A DNA stretch of 6,373 nt, taken from the IMG/VR virus record IMGVR_UViG_2619619132_000003, positions 1 to 6,373 of that record. One strand, written 5' to 3'. The notes below the pieces were generated by a model. It saw only the letters and a list, made by a program, of their open reading frames with translations, did no database searches and was not told where the DNA came from. Positions 67 through 6,373 of the stretch are shown piece after piece. Numbering within the stretch: position 1 is the first letter of the stretch; each line of letters begins with the position of its first letter. Made by a program: the position numbers and the translations under genes. The stretch comes from a virus. Taxonomy: Duplodnaviria > Heunggongvirae > Uroviricota > Caudoviricetes.

Positions 67-348
67 TTAATCGTCAATGTATTTTGAGCATTGTGGGCAA
101 TCATCAATCCCACAATACGATTCATATGCATCCTTTATTGCGTCGCGGGCTTCAGTAAGAGTATTGAATAAGTTGCAGCTATTATCTTTTTGATATAGGT
201 AAGTTCCTAATTTATAAGCAGAAGAAGCATCACTTCCGCTGTCTAAAATTACATCGTTATGGATTCTGCACCTTGCAAGAATTCCTGATCCCATAAGGGT
301 CTGCATAGCCCATTGCTCTTGATCTTCACACAAATCATGAATGCTCAT
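67..348 (-). CDS. Hypothetical small protein (93 aa) with C-terminal C-x4-C-x2-C motif
   Basis: The track ORF 67..366 begins with GTG at 366. The in-frame ATG at 348-346 is preceded by GAGAGGTG (Shine-Dalgarno-like) with about 5 nt spacing. The C-terminus contains CGIDDCPQC, with additional Cys at track-ORF residues 13, 32 and 63. No family recognised. Confidence 0.5.
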   Translation of the reverse strand: MSIHDLCEDQEQWAMQTLMGSGILARCRIHNDVILDSGSDASSAYKLGTYLYQKDNSCNLFNTLTEARDAIKDAYESYCGIDDCPQCSKYIDD

Positions 349-447
349 TTCAACACCTCTCTTCACGTTTCACACACGTTAAGATTAACAGTGTTTTTAC
401 ATGCTTTGGAAGATTTATTTTATAAAAACTCTTTTAATACAAATAGA

Positions 448-467
448 TATAATAGTTCACTATTATA
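448..467. promoter_or_regulatory. 20-bp AT-rich dyad TATAATAG-TTCA-CTATTATA in the intergenic region
   Basis: Perfect 8-bp inverted repeat arms (448-455 and 460-467) around a 4-bp spacer, overlapping the stop codon of the 463..1698 gene. On the minus strand this reads CTATAAT, a -10-like hexamer, about 100 bp upstream of the 67..348 gene. No convincing -35 was found. Confidence 0.25.
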
Positions 468-1698
468 GCTCCTTTAATCGAGGCGGTTCTGGTAGAGGCA
501 TCCAGTGGGTTACCTCTTTGAGATACAGGTCTTCGCCATCACCGTCATCCCAAGTTGGATTGCCATCATTAAACCAGTCGCCATATACGCCGACCTGAGT
601 GTTGGGGATGTTTGGTGGGTAGTTGTTTTTAAAGTCAGCTGCTAACACATAGCATTGTCGCTCTCCCATTTCTGGCATTCGCTCACTACAGCTTATCCAA
701 CCATCCGGAGTTACCGGAGAGTTGCCATTTACCAAGTCAGCTCGAACATATAGCGTGTCATCATGGTGCTGATTGTGGCTGCACCACGTTAATTCGCTTA
801 ACTCGCCATCTTCTGGCCATACTCCAGCTGTTTGCAGCCAGATATGGGCTGGCGCATCTTGGCAAGGTGTATTAACTGGCAACTTGTAAGTTTGGCTTAC
901 AGGTTGGCTACCCTGAAGCATGGCAGCGTGGCAGGCATCCTCTACGCCCTTAACTGCATCTGCGCAGTAGTTATAGCGATTGCATTCCACTAACTTCTGC
1001 TTGAGATTTTCAATTGCTTGCGCGACATCAGCCTGTATTGGCGGAACGGCTGTCTGCTGCTCTCGAACGTCATTAGTCGCTATCGGTTCTGCTGCCAACT
1101 GACTGGCATATTTGTTAATGGTAACGATAAGCTCTTGCTCAGCCTCATCCAGACAATCACCAATACCTCGCCTGTCACCGTCAAAATCATCGAAATCTGC
1201 ACGAATCCTGGCAACCTTCAGGATTGCGGACAACACCTCACTAGGAATTACCGGATAGTTGGTTGACGTTTCCGCGATTTCCCGAAAATTATTGGTTGAC
1301 GAATTCTTATTTTCCCGAAAGTTTCCGGACTGAAGCATGGCGGCGCGGCAGGCGTTCCAGCCAGCTGTTCGCCCAAGCGCGTAAACTTCAGATGGCTCAA
1401 GATAATCAATGTCATGCCCGTCCTCATCGTTGTTCTCAGGTAATGCAGCAGGTACTACCGGTACTGGCGGAGCGGCGTAGACTTCAATAATCCCATTATC
1501 AATAGGCCATTCTCCATCCTTGAGATAGTCACTTGTGCCGTCAACTTGCTGTTCAGCAATGTGGAATGCACCAACTGGCTCTGCCTCAAGCGAGGCCAGT
1601 GCAATCCGTGCCAGTTCCATTTGTTCGCCACGGGTAAGCCCGTTTTCAAGCGGATTTTTAATGAACAATTCAATACGTTCTTTGGTAATAGTGGTCAT
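463..1698 (-). CDS. DUF551-type prophage protein (411 aa) with internal repeats
   Basis: ATG at 1698-1696 preceded by AAGGAG with 6 nt spacing. The C-terminus (DGWISCSERMPE ... THWMPLPEPP) matches the DUF551 pattern as I remember it. Contains a repeated AC(R/H)AAMLQ motif and a tandem 11-aa repeat NFRENKNSSTN / NFREIAETSTN. Confidence 0.75.
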   Translation of the reverse strand: MTTITKERIELFIKNPLENGLTRGEQMELARIALASLEAEPVGAFHIAEQQVDGTSDYLKDGEWPIDNGIIEVYAAPPVPVVPAALPENNDEDGHDIDYLEPSEVYALGRTAGWNACRAAMLQSGNFRENKNSSTNNFREIAETSTNYPVIPSEVLSAILKVARIRADFDDFDGDRRGIGDCLDEAEQELIVTINKYASQLAAEPIATNDVREQQTAVPPIQADVAQAIENLKQKLVECNRYNYCADAVKGVEDACHAAMLQGSQPVSQTYKLPVNTPCQDAPAHIWLQTAGVWPEDGELSELTWCSHNQHHDDTLYVRADLVNGNSPVTPDGWISCSERMPEMGERQCYVLAADFKNNYPPNIPNTQVGVYGDWFNDGNPTWDDGDGEDLYLKEVTHWMPLPEPPRLKEL

Positions 1699-1973: not shown

Positions 1974-2564
1974 TCACTCTCCTTTGATGCGAATGCCAGC
2001 GGCGCGGGAATCATTCCATCGCTTTACTTCTTCACGAATTACGTCAATGCATTCTTTCGAATCCATTAGGTAATCTTCATCAAAAAGACGTTCCTGTTCG
2101 TTTTCTATCGCAACAATGATTGCTTCAACTAACTTTTGTGCCTGAGAACCACTTTCTAACTCTGCAATGCGCTTCTCTGCGGCCTCTGCCCTGCATTGTT
2201 CCCGTTGGAACATTTTGTGGGTGCGGTCGAGCGCCTCAAGTCTGGCTGCTGATGTTTTCTGTTCTGCTTCAAGCTCAACGCGCAGCTTCCCTACCGTTAG
2301 CGCAATATCCTCGTTCTCCTGGTCACGGCGTTTGATGTATTGCTGGTTTCTTTCCCGTTCATCCAGCAGCGCCAAGACGGTAGCCGGATTGGCTGCGGCG
2401 ATGAATTCAGCATCACGAGATTCGTTTTCACTTAACACCATAGCTATTTGCTCATGGTTTATGCCGTCAGTGGAGTAAATCTCATCGTCGAATTCAACAG
2501 CCCACTTACCTTTCGTAGCCTTCTCCGCCGCCTCACGCAGTGCATGGTAATCAATCTTGCTCAC
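1974..2564 (-). CDS. Ead/Ea22-like family protein (196 aa)
   Basis: GTG start at 2564-2562 preceded by AAGGAGG with 6 nt spacing. The N-terminus MSKIDYHALREAAEKATKGKWAVE resembles the conserved N-terminal region of lambda Ea22-like prophage proteins as I remember it. The central region is coiled-coil-like (LEAEQKTSAARLEALDRTHKMFQREQCRAEAAEKRIAELES). Overlaps the upstream gene by 14 nt. Confidence 0.6.
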   Translation of the reverse strand: MSKIDYHALREAAEKATKGKWAVEFDDEIYSTDGINHEQIAMVLSENESRDAEFIAAANPATVLALLDERERNQQYIKRRDQENEDIALTVGKLRVELEAEQKTSAARLEALDRTHKMFQREQCRAEAAEKRIAELESGSQAQKLVEAIIVAIENEQERLFDEDYLMDSKECIDVIREEVKRWNDSRAAGIRIKGE

Positions 2565-2868
2565 TGGTTGCCTCCTTTGCTGGGCCTTCTAACTTCTGAG
2601 TGGTTGTATCAAACTCAAACAACTTAACCACGTCATCAAACAGGACATAATCGCCATCAGAATCTTCAGTCATGTCAGCGCCACAATCCTGACCGCACGA
2701 GTCGCAACCTCCCATATCAAGCTCGTATCGCTTCAGGTTTGCGATATTTGATAAATTCAGCGCCAGTACAGCCAGGTCATAAACCTCTTCGGCGGTATAC
2801 CCTGCACCATGCCCATACATTTCAATGCGGGATATGATTTCTTCTACCCGTTGTTTTGTGATCGTCAT
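2551..2868 (-). CDS. Hypothetical acidic protein (105 aa) with Cys cluster CDSCGQDC
   Basis: ATG at 2868-2866 preceded by GGGAGGTGA, in an ATGA overlap with the upstream stop (2867-2865). By my count about 23 Asp/Glu against 8 Lys/Arg, with the acidic residues concentrated in the C-terminal half. No family recognised. Confidence 0.6.
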   Translation of the reverse strand: MTITKQRVEEIISRIEMYGHGAGYTAEEVYDLAVLALNLSNIANLKRYELDMGGCDSCGQDCGADMTEDSDGDYVLFDDVVKLFEFDTTTQKLEGPAKEATSEQD

Positions 2869-3326
2869 TTTTGCTCACCTCCCTGTTCTTCCAGAAAAAT
2901 ACGCATAGCCTCAAGCATCTCTTCGGTGTCATACGGAGACAGCTTGTCACGCAGGATGTGTTCAATGCTGTTAATGAACTTTCGGATTGCTTTGCGTTCA
3001 ATTTCGGTCAGGAAAGCATCGGTGGCTGGGGTGTCTGATTGCAGAGACTTTGCGCGATAGTCATTCCACCCTCTTGCATACATGGGATTAACTTGCACTC
3101 CATCTTTTACGCAATATGCCTGACCTCCACGGTTGATAACCTTGATTTCGTCCATTGCGCCAGACTTCAGCCCCGCATTCTCCGCCGCCAGCTCCGCGCA
3201 CTTGGCCTCCGCTTCAGCAAATTTACGCACCAGATATTCAGCGTTTGTTTCGTTAACCTTTAGATCTCGTGGGATGCATTTACCTTTCAGAAAACCATCC
3301 ATCTCAATTAGTGACATTTGTTTCAT
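2865..3326 (-). CDS. Hypothetical protein (153 aa)
   Basis: The track ORF 2865..3344 starts with GTG. The in-frame ATG at 3326-3324 forms an ATGA overlap with the stop of the upstream small ORF (3325-3323) and is preceded by GGAG about 9 nt upstream. No family recognised. Confidence 0.5.
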
Positions 3327-3487
3327 TTCTTGCCACTCCGCCACATCGCATTCAGATATTTGTTTTGATTCACTGAAGGAAAAGAATTTCTCTTAAGCAA
3401 TTCCTCTCTCGATGGCATTGGCTTTACGCGTTGGCGAATAATCATTTCTGCCGGAAGAATGCCGGGATTGTATGCAAGTCCTCTCAT
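3323..3487 (-). CDS. Hypothetical small basic protein (54 aa)
   Basis: The track ORF 3323..3640 starts with TTG and overlaps the upstream gene extensively. The internal ATG at 3487-3485 is preceded by GAGGAA with about 7 nt spacing, and the upstream stop (3500-3498) lies inside that Shine-Dalgarno. The ATG at 3505 is an alternative but has no Shine-Dalgarno. Confidence 0.4.
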
Positions 3488-3497
3488 GGTAAATTCC

Positions 3498-3794
3498 TCA
3501 GTCATTACTGATAGCGCCATAGCGTGAGCGGTAATTACGCAGGCGCGGGTCGATATATTCAGGGAAGTGGGTATATGTGGCTTTGCGGAATGGTCGGATT
3601 GATGTCTGGTAAATTCGCTCGCGTTCTTCTTTCTCTGCAAGCCATATACAGTGGCGAAATTCCTTTTCCTCTTTCGTTTCCTGCGGTAGCGACATTATCC
3701 GATCGTAGTTTTTTCTGAATTTATCCAGCACCTCCGATACGGAATTGCCGGAACAGCGGCGCGCGTCATCCGCACCATACAGAGGCGCTGGCAT
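3498..3794 (-). CDS. Hypothetical protein (98 aa), basic and aromatic-rich, immediately downstream of erf-ssb
   Basis: ATG at 3794-3792 preceded by AAGGA with about 8 nt spacing. Size and position are reminiscent of P22 abc2 (anti-RecBCD), but I do not recognise the sequence, so this is positional inference only. Confidence 0.55.
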
Positions 3795-3817: not shown

Positions 3818-4201
3818 CTAGAAGGGAATTGAATCGTCGTATTCAGGATGATTTTGATGATTGCTACTTTGTTGCTGTTGGCTGTTTCCTGAAGTTGCAA
3901 ATCCAATCTTTGCATTCAGTAATTCAAGAGTGATTGATTGACCATTTTGCCCCTGATAAACATCAACCATGATGTTTTCTCCGGTAATTTCTACAATGCC
4001 ACCTTCAACAAGAACACTACGGTAGTAATCCGCTTGCGCTCCCGGCTTGGCAAATACAACGGCGCTGTAGTTTGTCCATTCTTTCTTTTTTGTCTGGCGA
4101 TCGTAATACTGAACGCCAGCACGGATGTTGAATCCGATATTTTCCCCGGCCTGAAACTCTCTTGCGGGCTTGTTTAGTCTTACAGTAATCGAATGTGCCA
4201 T
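3818..4201 (-). CDS. ssb: Single-stranded DNA-binding protein, short phage type (127 aa)
   Basis: ATG at 4201-4199 overlaps the Erf stop by 1 nt (TAATG), with AGGAG upstream. The core WTNYSAVVFAK...YYRSVLVEGGIVEITGENI parallels the E. coli SSB OB-fold segment WHRVVLFGKLAE...YLRKGSQVYIEGQL. A Gln-rich linker leads to the acidic tail YDDSIPF, compared with DDDIPF in E. coli SSB. Confidence 0.8.
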   Translation of the reverse strand: MAHSITVRLNKPAREFQAGENIGFNIRAGVQYYDRQTKKKEWTNYSAVVFAKPGAQADYYRSVLVEGGIVEITGENIMVDVYQGQNGQSITLELLNAKIGFATSGNSQQQQSSNHQNHPEYDDSIPF

Positions 4202-4806
4202 TAAGCAGCAGCTCCTTCTAATTCGTCTCGTCTGATGTTGTAAACGTCCTGCGCTTTGTGCTGCTCAGGTGTGCCTTCGAGCATCTTCCACGCTTTGGCG
4301 AACGCCTGTTTAAGCTCTTCTACGGTGTTTTTCTGCATTGCTGCGTCAGTGAATGCTTTTAGAACCTGTTCAGGTGTAGGTGATGGTTTTGATTGCTTTG
4401 CTGCTGCGTTCTGCTGATGTTTATGCTCGTCTGTATCTGCATCTTTCGCATCATCAATGCCGAACAAACCATTGAGGCAATACTTGCGTGCATAAGAGCT
4501 TGTAGCTCCCGTAACTTGTGCAGAATCCATTCCTTTCTTGCTTTCTTCCTCTCGTGCAAGAGCGGTTGCCGTATGGCTGTTTTCGCCATCGGTAATAGTT
4601 GCCGTGGCTTTCACGTAATACCGATCACCAATCAACACAACTTCATCGCTGATTGATAAAAACAGACCATTCAGTAACGGCTTAACGCCTTCAAGAATAT
4701 CTTCGCAGCTTCTGTATTTATATTTACCGAATGAGTTGTACTGATTCTTTGGCGCGTTCAGATTCTCCTGAATAGCTGCCAGTCTTGCGTAAAATTCTTT
4801 GCTCAT
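4201..4806 (-). CDS. erf: Erf-family single-strand annealing (recombination) protein (201 aa)
   Basis: The track ORF begins with TTG at 4836; the first ATG is at 4806-4804 and gives MSKEFYARLAAIQENLNAPKNQYNSFGKYKYRSCEDILEGVKPLL. Size, the kil-proximal position, coupling to ssb and my recollection of the P22 Erf N-terminus support the call; it was not verified by search. Confidence 0.6.
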   Translation of the reverse strand: MSKEFYARLAAIQENLNAPKNQYNSFGKYKYRSCEDILEGVKPLLNGLFLSISDEVVLIGDRYYVKATATITDGENSHTATALAREEESKKGMDSAQVTGATSSYARKYCLNGLFGIDDAKDADTDEHKHQQNAAAKQSKPSPTPEQVLKAFTDAAMQKNTVEELKQAFAKAWKMLEGTPEQHKAQDVYNIRRDELEGAAA

Positions 4807-4895
4807 ATGATTGTTCTCAGAATGGACACGGCCCAAGGAAATAACGCTGATTTAATACTTCGACTCGGGACAAATTAAGGCATACCCGCATTCCT

Positions 4896-5066
4896 TCACG
4901 ATCTCCATTCTGGCGATACATTAACGCCTGCTGCGTGTACATGCGTCTCTGTAACTTGCTCTCCTTCACTGTGGTTGCAAGTGACATGAATATCTCCTTC
5001 GTTACCGATTAATTCTTTCATCTGACGAATGAATTCTTCGTCTGACCAGTTATCTGTAAAACTCAT
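4896..5066 (-). CDS. Hypothetical small protein (56 aa) in the position of P22 arf
   Basis: The track ORF 4896..5081 starts with GTG. The in-frame ATG at 5066-5064 forms an ATGA overlap with the kil stop (5065-5063). Product MSFTDNWSDEEFIRQMKELIGNEGDIHVTCNHSEGEQVTETHVHAAGVNVSPEWRS. No sequence recognition. Confidence 0.4.
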   Translation of the reverse strand: MSFTDNWSDEEFIRQMKELIGNEGDIHVTCNHSEGEQVTETHVHAAGVNVSPEWRS

Positions 5067-5215
5067 TTCCTGCGATACCACGGAAGGTTGATAGCTGATT
5101 TCATCGCTTTATTTGCTTCAAGCCACATTTTTGAATCACCAATAAATCTGGCTATTACTGCTTTGTTCTGTGCAGCACGAAGCATCTGGTGATTGATGGC
5201 TATTTCATTGCGCAT
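5063..5215 (-). CDS. kil: Kil-like host cell-division inhibitor (50 aa)
   Basis: Hand-translated; not in the ORF track. ATG at 5215-5213 preceded by GAGG with about 7 nt spacing. Product MRNEIAINHQMLRAAQNKAVIARFIGDSKMWLEANKAMKSAIQLPWYRRK. The segment IARFIGDSKMW resembles lambda Kil (IATFIGDEKMF, as remembered). Overlaps the 3' end of cIII by 16 nt, as kil does in lambda. Confidence 0.6.
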   Translation of the reverse strand: MRNEIAINHQMLRAAQNKAVIARFIGDSKMWLEANKAMKSAINLPWYRRK

Positions 5216-5331
5216 AATAAGACCTCAACTCTTTTCCATCCGTCACGTAATTTACGGGTGATTCGTTCAAGTAAAGATTCATTTAATTGGAAGGCACCCA
5301 TGCGAGCGCCTCCCGCGATTGCGTAAATCAT
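5200..5331 (-). CDS. cIII: CIII-like protein (FtsH protease inhibitor, 43 aa)
   Basis: Hand-translated; not in the ORF track. ATG at 5331-5329 preceded by AAGGA with about 8 nt spacing. Product MIYAIAGGARMGAFQLNESLLERITRKLRDGWKRSEVLLCAMK. The core ESLLERITRKLRDGWKR and the N-terminal M-YAIAG match lambda CIII (MQYAIAG...ESLLERITRKLRDGWKR) as I remember it. Confidence 0.8.
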   Translation of the reverse strand: MIYAIAGGARMGAFQLNESLLERITRKLRDGWKRVEVLLCAMK

Positions 5332-5355: not shown

Positions 5356-6231
5356 TTAGTAGGTTATTTTTGTTGCGAATACTTCGCCTTTTACGATGGC
5401 TGTTATGATATTTTTAGCAACATCTTCTGATGCACCAACCTTGATAAGGTCAGCAAGTATTTTGTTATTTACTTCTTTCCGGTGAGCTTTATCCTTTGCT
5501 CTACGCTCTTCTTCGTCCTTGATTCTTTTTTCTTCTGCTATTCTGGCTTGCTCTTTTGCTTCAGCTTCGCGCCGGATTCGTTCAGCCTCCTCCTGTGCTT
5601 TTCGGCGTTCTGCTTCAATTGCCGCCTGCTTTTCTCTTTCAGCTCGTTCTGCTGCCTCTTTTGCTTCGCGCTGTGCTCGTTGCTCGGCTTCAATGCGTTC
5701 ACGCTCTGCACGTTCCGCTGCGGCCTTAGCTTCTGCTTCTCGCCTTGCTGCTGCTTCAATTTCGGCTTTTGCCTTTGCTTCGGCTTCTGCTCTGGCTTTC
5801 TCTTCAGCTTCTCTTTTTAAGCGTTCTTCATGCTCTCGCTTTTCCTGCTCCGCTTTGAGTCTTGCCTCTTCTCTTTTGCGGTCAAATTCGCGATCCATCA
5901 AAATCGCTATTTCATGGTCAGACTCAATTTGCTTTGCGAGAGCTTCAGCTGCTGCCTTAGCTTCTTCTTCGGCTTTAATCCGTGCCTGTTCCTCCTCATA
6001 ATCAGTAAGAGGCTGGCGTGCCTTGGCTTTCAGTTCATCAAGGCGATCGCGCACTGTCTTGCGGTTGGCATCAATTAGCTTTGGAATTTCCTTCAGTTCA
6101 GCAACAAGGTCTTTGCCAAGACCATCGAGATATGTTTTCGTCTGCGCAACTTTATACGCCAGAGAAGCGATCTGAACCGCCCCGGGTTTCCTGGAGAGTG
6201 TTTTATCTGTGAACTCAGGCTGCCAGATCAT
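5356..6231 (-). CDS. E/A/K/R-rich coiled-coil protein, apparently interrupted at its 5' end by the IS; native portion 5356..6172
   Basis: The track ORF 5356..6357 starts with GTG inside the transposase coding region, in another frame. Sequence right of 6172 is IS-derived. The first in-frame ATGs (6249, 6231) lie inside the IS and have weak or no Shine-Dalgarno. The native part has no start codon of its own, so this is most likely the 3' fragment of a disrupted gene, possibly expressed as a fusion. About 170 aa are low-complexity, e.g. EAEAKAKAEIEAAARREAEAKAAAERAERERIEAEQRAQREAKEAAERAEREKQAAIEAERRKAQEEAERIRREAEAKEQARIAEEKRIKDEEERRAKDKA. Confidence 0.45.
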   Translation of the reverse strand: MIWQPEFTDKTLSRKPGAVQIASLAYKVAQTKTYLDGLGKDLVAELKEIPKLIDANRKTVRDRLDELKAKARQPLTDYEEEQARIKAEEEAKAAAEALAKQIESDHEIAILMDREFDRKREEARLKAEQEKREHEERLKREAEEKARAEAEAKAKAEIEAAARREAEAKAAAERAERERIEAEQRAQREAKEAAERAEREKQAAIEAERRKAQEEAERIRREAEAKEQARIAEEKRIKDEEERRAKDKAHRKEVNNKILADLIKVGASEDVAKNIITAIVKGEVFATKITY

Positions 6232-6373
6232 CGTTTCCGATGGAAGCATAATAAGCTTTTTCTGCTTCTGCCGGAGGAGTATGGCCCAGCCTTTCCAGCA
6301 ATCGTCGATTGTTATACCAGTCCACCCACGTGAGTGTGGCCAGTTCCACTTCTGCACGGTTTTTCCAGCTCTT
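6173..6373 (-). mobile_element. IS3-family insertion sequence (IS629/IS1203-like), terminal ~200 bp; continues beyond the window
   Basis: The plus strand from 6173 reads TGAACCGCCCCGGGTTTCCTGGAGAGTG, a TG-initiated terminal inverted repeat that I recognise as IS629-group. It sits 42 bp beyond the stop of a transposase-like reading frame on the minus strand. Confidence 0.7.
6215..6373 (-). CDS. IS3-family transposase OrfB, 3' end (partial; 5' end outside window)
   Basis: Hand-translated minus-strand frame open to the window edge: KSWKNRAEVELATLTWVDWYNNRRLLERLGHTPPAEAEKAYYASIGNDDLAA, stop at 6217-6215. WYNNRRL...PPAE...YY is the characteristic C-terminus of the IS3-family integrase-core (rve) domain. 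It is absent from the ORF track because no start lies in the window. Confidence 0.75.
   Translation of the reverse strand, partial: KSWKNRAEVELATLTWVDWYNNRRLLERLGHTPPAEAEKAYYASIGNDDLAA

What the first reader, a model, noticed from the sequence alone, without database searches (positions are those of the whole stretch)
2551..2868. Strongly acidic 105-aa protein with a Cys cluster: possible DNA-mimic or metal-binding anti-defence candidate
By my count it has about 23 acidic against 8 basic residues, with an Asp/Glu-rich C-terminal half (DMGGCDSCGQDCGADMTEDSDGDYVLFDD...) and a CxxC-x3-C cluster. Small, highly acidic phage proteins in early operons include DNA mimics that block restriction or other DNA-binding defence proteins (Ocr and ArdA are the established examples). 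No family was recognised, so this is a hypothesis from composition and context only.
Basis: inference. Interest (0 to 1): 0.55.

Follow-up and report, generated by a model that had tools for sequence, protein, structure and literature searches.

The report
Small acidic two-module phage accessory protein
This is a real, conserved 105-residue acidic protein from the early accessory operon of a P22/lambda-like E. coli prophage, built from two portable modules of unknown function; nothing tested here supports the idea that it mimics DNA, though an anti-defence role remains plausible from its neighbours.

Summary
Window 2551-2868 (minus strand) encodes a 105-aa protein with 23 Asp/Glu, 8 Lys/Arg, pI 4.1, and Cys at 55, 58 and 62. 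It has a strong ribosome-binding site, overlaps both neighbouring genes, and shows dN/dS of about 0.15.

- **Family:** it matches PHROG 3126 (function unknown) over its full length. It has no Pfam, NCBIfam, PADLOC or PDB relative.
- **Structure:** the AlphaFold model (pLDDT 71) shows an N-terminal helical hairpin, a roughly 43-residue beta-hairpin-plus-helix mini-domain carrying the Cys loop, and a disordered tail. It does not show an Ocr/ArdA-like shape.
- **Modularity:** an exhaustive profile search shows the two halves are independent mobile modules. The Cys-loop module also occurs at the C-terminus of Ead/Ea22-like coiled-coil proteins, in EaA/DUF551-type mosaic proteins and in ASCH-domain proteins.
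- **Cysteines:** only Cys55 and Cys62 are essentially invariant. Cys58 is Phe in about a third of relatives.
- **Acidity:** strong acidity is common among genes of this operon.
- **Context:** the upstream neighbour is a homologue of Oad2, a recently described inhibitor of the OLD defence nuclease. The family also occurs in phages with no annotated integrase.

My best reading is an early host- or defence-protein-binding accessory factor, possibly metal-stabilised. The mechanism is unproven. Interest is modest.

The parts
2551..2868 (-). Coding sequence of the 105-aa acidic protein (g105), a member of PHROG 3126
   Evidence: ORF; composition; PHROG 3126 E 2e-67 over 1-105; dN/dS 0.15
2876..2882 (-). 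Shine-Dalgarno-like GGAGGTG, 7 nt upstream of the ATG. It lies inside the 3' end of the upstream gene, whose stop overlaps the start (ATGA).
   Evidence: Read directly from the sequence
2743..2868 (-). Module A, residues 1-42: N-terminal helical hairpin 'leader' ([37 protein letters not shown]...). It is also found alone at the N-terminus of many EaA/DUF551-type mosaic proteins.
   Evidence: Helices 5-18 and 26-43, pLDDT about 75. Independent occurrences: P0181, P0188, P0193-P0197, P0202-P0204. Weak match to phrog_3323, which also matches the N-terminus of g411.
2614..2742 (-). Module B, residues 43-85: acidic Cys-loop mini-domain. Motif: R-[YF]-[DE]-L-D-x2-3-C-D-S-[CF]-G-Q-D-C-G-A-[DE]-M-x-E-[DE]-x-[DE]-G-[DE]-[YF]-V-L-x-x-[DE]-V.
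   Evidence: Strands 48-51 and 65-68, helix 77-84, pLDDT 81-87 outside the loop. Occurs independently in 68 cluster-50 representatives, with the column conservation listed. Partner domains.
2683..2706 (-). Cys loop, residues 55-62 (CDSCGQDC). Cys55 and Cys62 are near-invariant; Cys58 varies between Cys and Phe.
   Evidence: Loop pLDDT about 66.
2551..2613 (-). Variable, predicted-disordered acidic tail (residues 86-105 plus the stop codon). The last 14 nt overlap the GTG start of the downstream Ead/Ea22-like gene. In relatives this tail is the junction to other C-terminal modules.
   Evidence: pLDDT below 50 for residues 87-105. Variable and extended C-termini in alignment A1. In-frame fusions with Ead: P0121, P0136.
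2865..3344 (-). Upstream neighbour g159: a member of the EaE/Oad2 family, the usual upstream partner of g105 homologues
   Evidence: 42% identity, E 1.5e-37 to HK446 gp27 (Oad2); 33% to P22 EaE. Oad2 described in bioRxiv 10.64898/2026.07.10.737580. An EaE/Oad2-like gene lies upstream in 58/80 loci.
1974..2564 (-). Downstream neighbour g196: an Ead/Ea22-like coiled-coil protein, the usual downstream partner
   Evidence: PF13935 E 1.4e-30. An Ead/Ea22-like gene lies downstream in 41/80 loci. The same order is seen in EDL933 and PhiR12_2.

Best explanation
**Shown.** g105 is a genuine, translated early accessory gene of the mosaic 'Ea' gene set (EaA / EaE / Ead-Ea22 / DUF551) of P22-like and lambdoid phages. 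The protein is a minimal two-module construct:
- a helical-hairpin leader (residues 1-42);
- a roughly 43-residue acidic mini-domain (residues 43-85), in which a loop closed by two near-invariant cysteines connects the strands of a small beta-sheet packed against a short helix;
- a disordered acidic tail.

The Cys-loop mini-domain is the functional unit. It is reused as a portable 'head' on Ead/Ea22 coiled-coil stalks and on other accessory scaffolds.

**Inferred.** It acts early in infection by binding a host protein, most likely a defence or DNA-metabolism factor. This fits the Oad2-like, Abc2 and gp33-like genes in the same operon. The Cys loop is probably stabilised by a metal ion held by two or three Cys/His ligands plus Asp or a second protomer. 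It is not an Ocr/ArdA-type DNA mimic.
For: **Real gene under purifying selection.** RBS and coupled overlaps; dN/dS 0.15; 285 close homologues; present in 533/5426 E. coli genomes.

**Two independent modules.** Profile search of 1.84 billion representatives, sequences and domain envelopes.

**Fold.** AlphaFold model at pLDDT 71, with module B at 81-87 outside the loop and the tail below 50.

**Module B conservation over distant relatives.** C62 and G72 68/68; R47, C55, D56, A64 and M66 at least 65/68. This includes relatives in T4-like and other phage early-gene arrays.

**Ligand pattern.** 60/68 representatives keep three Cys/His in the loop. All 13 sequences with His54 lack Cys58.

**Association with Ead/Ea22.**
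- Module B is fused C-terminally to PF13935 coiled coils (P0149, P0160).
- In-frame g105::Ead fusions exist (P0121, P0136).
- An Ead/Ea22-like gene lies immediately downstream in 41/80 loci.
- The block g105-Ead-x-DUF551 is also found in the early-right region of an EDL933 prophage.

**Anti-defence neighbourhood.** Abc2; g159 is an Oad2 homologue and g61 is 95% identical to the OLD trigger gp33.

**Not lysogeny-specific.** The gene pair EaE-like + g105 is present in siphophages of the genera Macdonaldcampvirus and Buchananvirus and in BASEL phage Bas80, which has no annotated integrase or repressor.
Against: - No binding partner, phenotype or metal content is known for any member of the family. 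Every database name is 'hypothetical protein'.
- The functional steps rest on guilt by association in a region that is highly mosaic, where adjacency is weak evidence.
- The third Cys is dispensable. Eight of 68 representatives, and many close relatives (CDSFGQDC without His), have only two Cys/His ligands, so a classical mononuclear site within one chain is doubtful.
- The model has only moderate confidence (pTM 0.42). The loop has pLDDT about 66, and I could not inspect coordinates.
- The extreme sequence identity of the DCDSCGQDCGADM core across mosaic contexts may partly reflect recent recombination rather than functional constraint.
Confidence: 0.4

Rival explanations
1. DNA mimic. The acidic surface of a g105 oligomer imitates the phosphate backbone and titrates a DNA-binding defence protein such as a type I restriction enzyme, as Ocr and ArdA do.
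For: - Net charge is -15 over 105 residues, pI 4.1. That places it in the top ~5% most acidic per residue against a P22 proteome.
- Many acidic positions in module B are conserved: D56, [DE]65, E68, [DE]69, [DE]71, [DE]73, [DE]79.
- It sits in an early operon with other counter-defence genes.
Against: - No sequence or fold similarity to Ocr, ArdA or any solved protein.
- The ordered part is two small modules with uncertain mutual orientation (pTM 0.42), and 19 residues have pLDDT below 50, nearly all in the tail. This is not the long rigid array typical of known mimics.
- Acidity is shared by most neighbouring accessory proteins of unrelated sequence.
- Module B is used as a head on coiled-coil stalks and next to enzymatic domains. 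That pattern fits a protein-recognition module better.
Confidence: 0.1
2. Lysis-lysogeny modulator. g105 works with the adjacent Ead/Ea22-like protein to bias the developmental decision, as reported for lambda Ea22.
For: - Tight linkage and occasional fusion with Ead/Ea22-like genes.
- Lambda Ea22 is reported to favour lysogeny and is thought to bind an unknown host protein (PMC7093339 and PMC10834534 abstracts).
Against: - The family, together with its EaE-like upstream partner, is also carried by siphophages with no annotated integrase or repressor.
- Distant relatives occur in large lytic-type phage genomes.
- No member has been tested.
Confidence: 0.1
3. Cofactor-dependent or redox-active protein. 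The Cys loop binds an Fe-S cluster or acts as a thiol/disulfide switch that senses or alters host redox or metal status.
For: - C-x2-C-x3-C in the window protein, with a very weak similarity to a ferredoxin Cys motif (E = 9).
- Three Cys/His ligands are retained in 60/68 representatives.
Against: - The ferredoxin hit is at noise level.
- There is no fourth conserved ligand.
- Cys58 is replaced by Phe in about a third of relatives.
- There are no Pfam hits to any Fe-S or redox family.
Confidence: 0.07
4. No autonomous function. The ORF is a by-product of module shuffling: a leader and a linker kept because they provide homology for recombination between Ea genes or translational coupling to the downstream gene.
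For: - The modules sit at mosaic junctions.
- The tail overlaps the Ead start and the 5' end overlaps the upstream stop.
- There are many truncated or frameshifted variants in databases.
- The core is near-identical across contexts.
Against: - dN/dS is 0.10-0.25 in both modules.
- The protein-level motif is preserved in relatives with only ~30-40% identity and in different phage types.
- The model gives a consistent fold for module B.
Confidence: 0.08

Closest known systems
PHROG 3126 (phage protein family of unknown function)
   Same: Full-length match, residues 1-105 to profile 1-105, E 2.4e-67. Distant module-B proteins also hit this profile over positions ~40-85.
   Different: Nothing differs: this is the family. 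It has no annotated function, so membership explains nothing mechanistically.
Ocr (T7 gp0.3) and ArdA, the DNA-mimic anti-restriction proteins
   Same: Small, early-expressed and strongly acidic (pI about 4). Encoded among counter-defence genes.
   Different: No sequence or fold similarity. The predicted architecture is hairpin + mini-domain + disordered tail rather than an elongated rigid acidic dimer. It contains a conserved Cys loop, which those proteins, to my knowledge, lack.
Ead/Ea22-like proteins (PF13935; lambda Ea22, P22 EaD)
   Same: Same accessory region. The two genes are adjacent and sometimes fused. Module B can replace the C-terminal head of an Ead/Ea22-type coiled coil.
   Different: g105 itself has no PF13935 match and no coiled coil. 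No PDB chain, and so no solved Ea22 structure, is detectably similar to it in sequence.
Oad2 (HK446 gp27) / P22 EaE family, inhibitor of the OLD tRNase defence
   Same: Encoded immediately upstream (g159 is 42% identical to Oad2). Both are small acidic proteins of the recombination-linked hotspot. The EaE-like + g105 pair is conserved from lambdoid prophages to phages with no annotated integrase.
   Different: g105 has no detectable similarity to Oad2 or EaE. Per the preprint, a 54%-identical Oad2 homologue did not inhibit OLD, so even the neighbour's activity cannot be assumed.
Ral / Lar restriction-alleviation proteins
   Same: Small phage early proteins. By eye, Ral has a superficially similar 'C-x2-C ... 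C ... E-D-G-x-[IY]-V' string.
   Different: Profile comparison gives probability 0.05. The spacing from the last Cys to the DG turn differs (14 versus 8 residues). No Ral-family Pfam hit for any of 32 family members.

Membership tests
PHROG 3126 | Significant full-length match to the family profile | tested here: met
   E 2.4e-67, residues 1-105 to profile 1-105/105
Ocr-type DNA mimic (T7 gp0.3) | Sequence homology to the Ocr family | tested here: not met
   No Pfam family at E <= 1 or at E <= 5 across 32 relatives. No PDB sequence hit.
Ocr-type DNA mimic (T7 gp0.3) | Elongated helical dimer whose acidic side chains follow the phosphate pattern of bent B-DNA | tested here: inconclusive
Ocr-type DNA mimic (T7 gp0.3) | Binds and inhibits type I restriction-modification enzymes | not testable with these tools
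   Needs plaque or transformation assays and binding assays
ArdA anti-restriction | Sequence or fold homology to ArdA | tested here: not met
   No Pfam hit. No PDB sequence or fold hit.
Cys-rich metal-binding site (zinc knuckle/ribbon or Fe-S type) | Three to four metal ligands conserved across the family | tested here: inconclusive
   C62 68/68 and C55 66/68, but C58 only 43/68. 60/68 keep three Cys/His in the loop; all 13 sequences with His54 lack Cys58; 8/68 have only two ligands. No fourth conserved Cys/His.
Cys-rich metal-binding site (zinc knuckle/ribbon or Fe-S type) | Bound metal demonstrated | not testable with these tools
   Needs ICP-MS or a colorimetric assay on purified protein
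Ead/Ea22-like (PF13935) | Match to PF13935, i.e. N-terminal region plus coiled coil | tested here: not met
   No hit for g105. The neighbour g196 hits at E 1.4e-30.
EaE / Oad2 (OLD anti-defence 2) | Sequence homology to HK446 gp27 or P22 EaE | tested here: not met
   BLASTP of Oad2 and EaE against the window proteins hits g159 only, not g105
Ral restriction alleviation | Profile-level homology to Ral | tested here: not met
   hhalign probability 0.05. No Pfam Ral hit.

The most novel reading that the evidence does not exclude
The ~43-residue Cys-loop module (R-Y-D-L ... C-x6-C-G-A-D-M-x-E-D-x-D-G-E-Y-V ... D-V) is an undescribed, metal-stabilised 'warhead' domain. Phages would display it either as a free small protein (g105) or on Ead/Ea22 coiled-coil stalks, to inhibit a specific host immune or DNA-repair protein. 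On this reading, g105 and its Oad2-like and Ead-like neighbours form a modular anti-defence cassette that moves between temperate phages and phages lacking an integrase.
Probability: 0.2. Interest if true: 0.6.

Novelty: new member of a known kind. Interest (0 to 1): 0.3.

Why it matters
The 'Ea' region between the recombination genes and int/xis is one of the least understood parts of lambdoid and P22-like phages. It has just begun to yield anti-defence proteins such as Abc2, Oad2 and the OLD trigger gp33.

g105 homologues are carried by about 10% of complete E. coli genomes, including O157:H7 EDL933, and by Salmonella and Shigella phages. A function for this family would therefore annotate thousands of 'hypothetical' genes.

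The practical gain from this work is a cleaner target. The unit to test is the 43-residue Cys-loop module and its two invariant cysteines, not bulk acidity. Its recurrent pairing with Ead/Ea22 and EaE/Oad2-type genes points to the partners and defence systems to try first. As it stands this is an ordinary uncharacterised accessory gene, not evidence of a new mechanism.

Tried and rejected
1. **Family libraries.** Pfam, NCBIfam and PADLOC gave nothing for g105. The only hit was McsA at E 0.041 against a cutoff of 210 bits, which is noise. Scanning 32 relatives at E <= 5 gave only scattered noise.
2. **PDB by sequence.** The single sequence gave neoculin at E 1.8 and ferredoxin at E 9. The profile gave a sugar-binding protein at E 1.2. 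All rejected as chance.
3. **First AlphaFold run.** Using close homologues only, pLDDT was 52 and the model was unusable. The second run, with distant module-B relatives, reached pLDDT 71.
5. **Ral.** A resemblance noticed by eye was tested with hhalign and rejected.
6. **EF-hand or dockerin-type Ca loop in 'EDSDGDYVLFDD'.** Rejected on inspection, because the invariant Gly is at the wrong position for the canonical D-x-D-x-D-G pattern.
7. **Literature.** No paper mentions PHROG 3126 or 614. Peptide strings from g105 were absent from the supplements of the accessory-gene screen paper PMC12373910. The earlier preprint from that screening platform does not mention Ea22 or DUF551.
8. **RNA and signals.** No Rfam family in the window, and no excess of promoter- or terminator-like sites.
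9. **Plasmids.** Only module A-like fragments were found in roughly 90-100 kb plasmids, plus a few full-length copies. This was not informative.

Full report
**1. The observation**

Window 2551-2868 on the minus strand is an ATG-initiated ORF of 105 codons. It encodes 23 Asp/Glu, 8 Lys/Arg and one His, giving pI 4.10 and net charge -15. Cys lie at residues 55, 58 and 62.

The gene has a GGAGGTG Shine-Dalgarno sequence 7 nt upstream. Its ATG overlaps the stop of the upstream gene (ATGA). Its last 14 nt overlap the GTG start of the downstream gene. Across 38 distinct alleles from 80 viral contigs plus two phage records, dN/dS is 0.15: 0.10 in the first 42 codons and 0.25 in codons 43-85. It is a real protein-coding gene.

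**2. Where it sits**

All genes in the window run on the minus strand and form the early-left accessory operon of a P22-like/lambdoid prophage. From upstream to downstream they are:

| Gene | Coordinates | Identity |
|---|---|---|
| g333 | 5356-6357 | Glu/Lys/Ala-rich coiled-coil protein |
| small genes | ~4817-5331 | kil/cIII region |
| g211 | 4201-4836 | Erf |
| g127 | 3818-4201 | SSB-like protein |
| g98 | 3498-3794 | Abc2 (PF11043, E 4e-61) |
| g159 | 2865-3344 | EaE/Oad2 family (section 6) |
| g105 | 2551-2868 | the target |
| g196 | 1974-2564 | Ead/Ea22-like protein (PF13935, E 1e-30) |
| g101 | 1709-2014 | PHROG 1714, function unknown |
| g411 | 463-1698 | DUF551 protein |
| g99 | 67-366 | lambda Ea8.5-like protein |

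No complete phage or E. coli genome carries this exact gene order over 80% or more of the window, which is typical of this mosaic region. The gene itself is in 533 of 5426 complete E. coli genomes, including O157:H7 EDL933. Every database name for it is 'hypothetical protein'.

**3. Family**

g105 matches PHROG 3126 (unknown function) end to end (E 2.4e-67). It has no Pfam, NCBIfam or PADLOC family and no relative in the PDB, whether searched by single sequence or by profile.

A word-indexed search found 285 relatives, and the 120 listed are at least 79% identical. They come from E. coli, Salmonella and Shigella prophages. They also come from ~45-48 kb non-lambdoid siphophages of the genera Macdonaldcampvirus and Buchananvirus and from BASEL phage Bas80. 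The Bas80 record has no annotated integrase or repressor among its 90 features.

**4. Two portable modules**

A profile search of 1.84 billion representative proteins returned 117 hits that split cleanly.

- **Module A (positions ~1-40).** The sequence [33 protein letters not shown] occurs alone as the N-terminal leader of many EaA/DUF551-type proteins.
- **Module B (positions ~43-85).** This occurs alone in the middle or at the C-terminus of other proteins:
  - after Ead/Ea22 coiled coils (P0149, P0160; PF13935);
  - in EaA-like proteins ending in DUF551 or a dATP/dGTP pyrophosphohydrolase domain (P0165);
  - after DUF3850/ASCH domains (P0211).

Very distant copies (30-40% identity) lie in arrays of small early genes in other phages. 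One sits near RecA-like, GIY-YIG and PhoH genes; another sits next to a DNA methylase in a 66-kb contig.

Over 68 cluster-50 representatives the motif is R47 (66/68), [YF]48, L50, C55 (66), D56 (65), C62 (68), A64 (66), [DE]65, M66 (67), [DE]69, [DE]71, G72 (68), [DE]73, [YF]74 (68), V75, L76, [DE]79 and V80.

**5. Structure**

With close homologues only, AlphaFold gave pLDDT 52. With a 32-sequence alignment that included distant module-B relatives it gave pLDDT 71 and pTM 0.42. The model contains:
- helices 5-18 and 26-43 (module A);
- strands 48-51 and 65-68, a bridge at residue 74, and helix 77-84 (module B, pLDDT 81-87 outside the loop);
- the Cys loop at pLDDT about 66;
- residues 87-105 below 50, i.e. 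a disordered tail.

**6. The cysteines**

- Cys62 is invariant and Cys55 nearly so. Cys58 is present in only 43 of 68 representatives and is Phe in 19.
- Among the 120 close cluster representatives, CDSFGQDC is almost as common as CDSCGQDC. A few have CDPFSPNCC or FDPFSPNC.
The conserved feature is a loop closed by two cysteines, usually C-x6-C.
- Even so, 60 of 68 representatives retain three Cys/His in the loop. In a distant clade every sequence with His at position 54 lacks Cys58 (12 Phe, 1 Ser). This looks like a ligand swap.
- That keeps a metal site plausible: two or three protein ligands, completed by Asp56/Asp61 or by a second chain. Eight representatives and many close relatives manage with two cysteines only, so this stays an inference.

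**7. Neighbours and association**

*Upstream gene.* g159 is 42% identical (E 1.5e-37) to HK446 gp27 and 33% identical to P22 EaE. A July 2026 preprint names gp27 Oad2. It reports that Oad2 binds and inhibits the P2 OLD tRNase defence protein and is related to EaE. It also reports that a 54%-identical homologue did not inhibit OLD, so g159's activity cannot be assumed.

*Elsewhere in the operon.* g61 (4896-5081) is 95% identical to HK446 gp33, reported there as an OLD trigger.

*Neighbourhood counts.* In 80 viral contigs, an EaE/Oad2-like gene precedes the g105 homologue in 58 and an Ead/Ea22-like gene follows it in 41.

*Other arrangements.*
- The pair 'EaE-like + g105' is also present in Bas80 and Sa179lw.
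- In EDL933 the block g105-Ead-x-DUF551 lies in the early-right region, downstream of the replication genes.
- Database entries P0121 and P0136 are in-frame g105::Ead fusions.

Together with module B capping Ead/Ea22 coiled coils, this is the strongest functional link I found. It ties the module to Ead/Ea22-type proteins. The lambda member of that family is reported to favour lysogeny and is thought to bind an unknown host protein (abstracts).

**8. Interpretation**

Acidity alone does not discriminate. In P22, 4 of 66 proteins are as acidic per residue or nearly so, and most early-left accessory proteins are acidic. The same holds for g411, g99 and g61 in this window.

The evidence best fits a small early accessory protein whose working part is the Cys-loop mini-domain. 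That module is used across phages as a recognition 'head', either free or mounted on coiled-coil and other scaffolds. The most likely target class is a host defence or DNA-metabolism protein, given the hotspot. The occurrence in phages with no annotated integrase argues against a purely lysogeny-related role.

I put 0.4 on this reading. Its anatomical part is well supported; its functional part is inferred. The rivals are:

| Rival | Confidence |
|---|---|
| DNA mimicry | 0.1 |
| Ea22-type developmental modulation | 0.1 |
| Recombination/coupling by-product with no function of its own | ~0.08 |
| Fe-S or redox role | ~0.07 |

**9. Novelty and score**

The gene belongs to a catalogued but uncharacterised family in a well-known accessory region. 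It is a new member of a known kind (small early phage accessory proteins), not a new kind of system.

What is modestly new is the delineation of the 43-residue Cys-loop module and its recurrent association with Ead/Ea22 and EaE/Oad2-type genes. Interest is 0.3. The most novel reading not excluded is that module B is an undescribed metal-stabilised anti-defence warhead in a mobile cassette. I give that about 0.2 probability and 0.6 interest if true.

Noticed in passing
window 2865-3344 (-): The upstream gene g159 is a full-length homologue (42% identity, E 1.5e-37) of HK446 gp27. A July 2026 preprint names gp27 Oad2, an inhibitor of the P2 OLD defence tRNase. g159 is also 33% identical to P22 EaE. 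Whether g159 inhibits OLD is unknown; the preprint says a 54%-identical homologue did not.
   Followed up: partly
window 4896-5081 (-): The 61-aa acidic ORF (pI 4.5) is 95% identical to HK446 gp33, reported in the same preprint as a new trigger of OLD encoded next to Erf. It overlaps another candidate ORF (4817-4987) in a different frame.
   Followed up: partly
window ~6174-6373: The right end of the window is the end of an IS3-family element. It encodes the C-terminus of a transposase on the minus strand (...WVDWYNNRRLLERLGHTPPAEAEKAYYA...) and is multi-copy in E. coli. Most of the listed phage matches stop at 6173. The IS sits upstream of, or within the 5' end of, the coiled-coil gene g333. 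The listed GTG start at 6357 is therefore probably artefactual, and the operon may be cut off from its PL promoter.
   Followed up: partly
window 2865-3344 (-), residues ~105-115 of g159; also P0011, P0021, P0037, HK446 gp27, P22 EaE: A short motif, (T)PATDAFL[AT]E[VI], recurs at module junctions in EaE/Oad2-like proteins. It also marks the point where C-terminally extended g105 variants switch to other modules. It looks like a recombination linker for module shuffling.
   Followed up: no
L001 (PhiR12_2) 3891-4004: A 37-aa ORF annotated 'EaE protein' directly upstream of the g105 homologue keeps only the last 29 codons of a g159-type gene (...[27 protein letters not shown]). About half of the 80 viral loci keep this same C-terminal sequence in front of g105. 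The 3' end of the upstream gene and g105 seem to move together.
   Followed up: partly
window 463-1698 (-): g411 shares its first 42 residues (90% identity) with P22 EaA and ends in DUF551. Its N-terminal leader (MTTITKERIELFIKN...) resembles module A of g105: both hit phrog_3323, g105 only weakly. A common helical-hairpin leader seems to head many Ea proteins.
   Followed up: partly
L085 (E. coli O157:H7 EDL933, record 1636922-1638446): In EDL933 the block g105 homologue / Ead-Ea22-like / small ORF / DUF551 lies in the early-right region of a prophage. It comes after the replication genes and DUF4406/DUF4752, and before hokD, RusA and the antiterminator. It is not in the early-left operon, so the block is a mobile cassette.
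   Followed up: no
P0184, P0189, P0192, P0205-P0217 (distant module-B clade): In this clade the loop reads GGHCDSFGQDC. All 13 sequences with His at position 54 lack Cys58, a pattern expected if His replaces Cys as a metal ligand. Two of these proteins (P0211 and P0214) start with an N-terminal DUF3850/ASCH-type region, confirmed by Pfam for P0211.
   Followed up: partly
window 67-366 (-): g99 is a lambda Ea8.5-related protein (PF20735, E 2e-15) with six cysteines. A terminator-like hairpin on the minus strand at 48-29 follows it and may mark the end of the operon.
   Followed up: no
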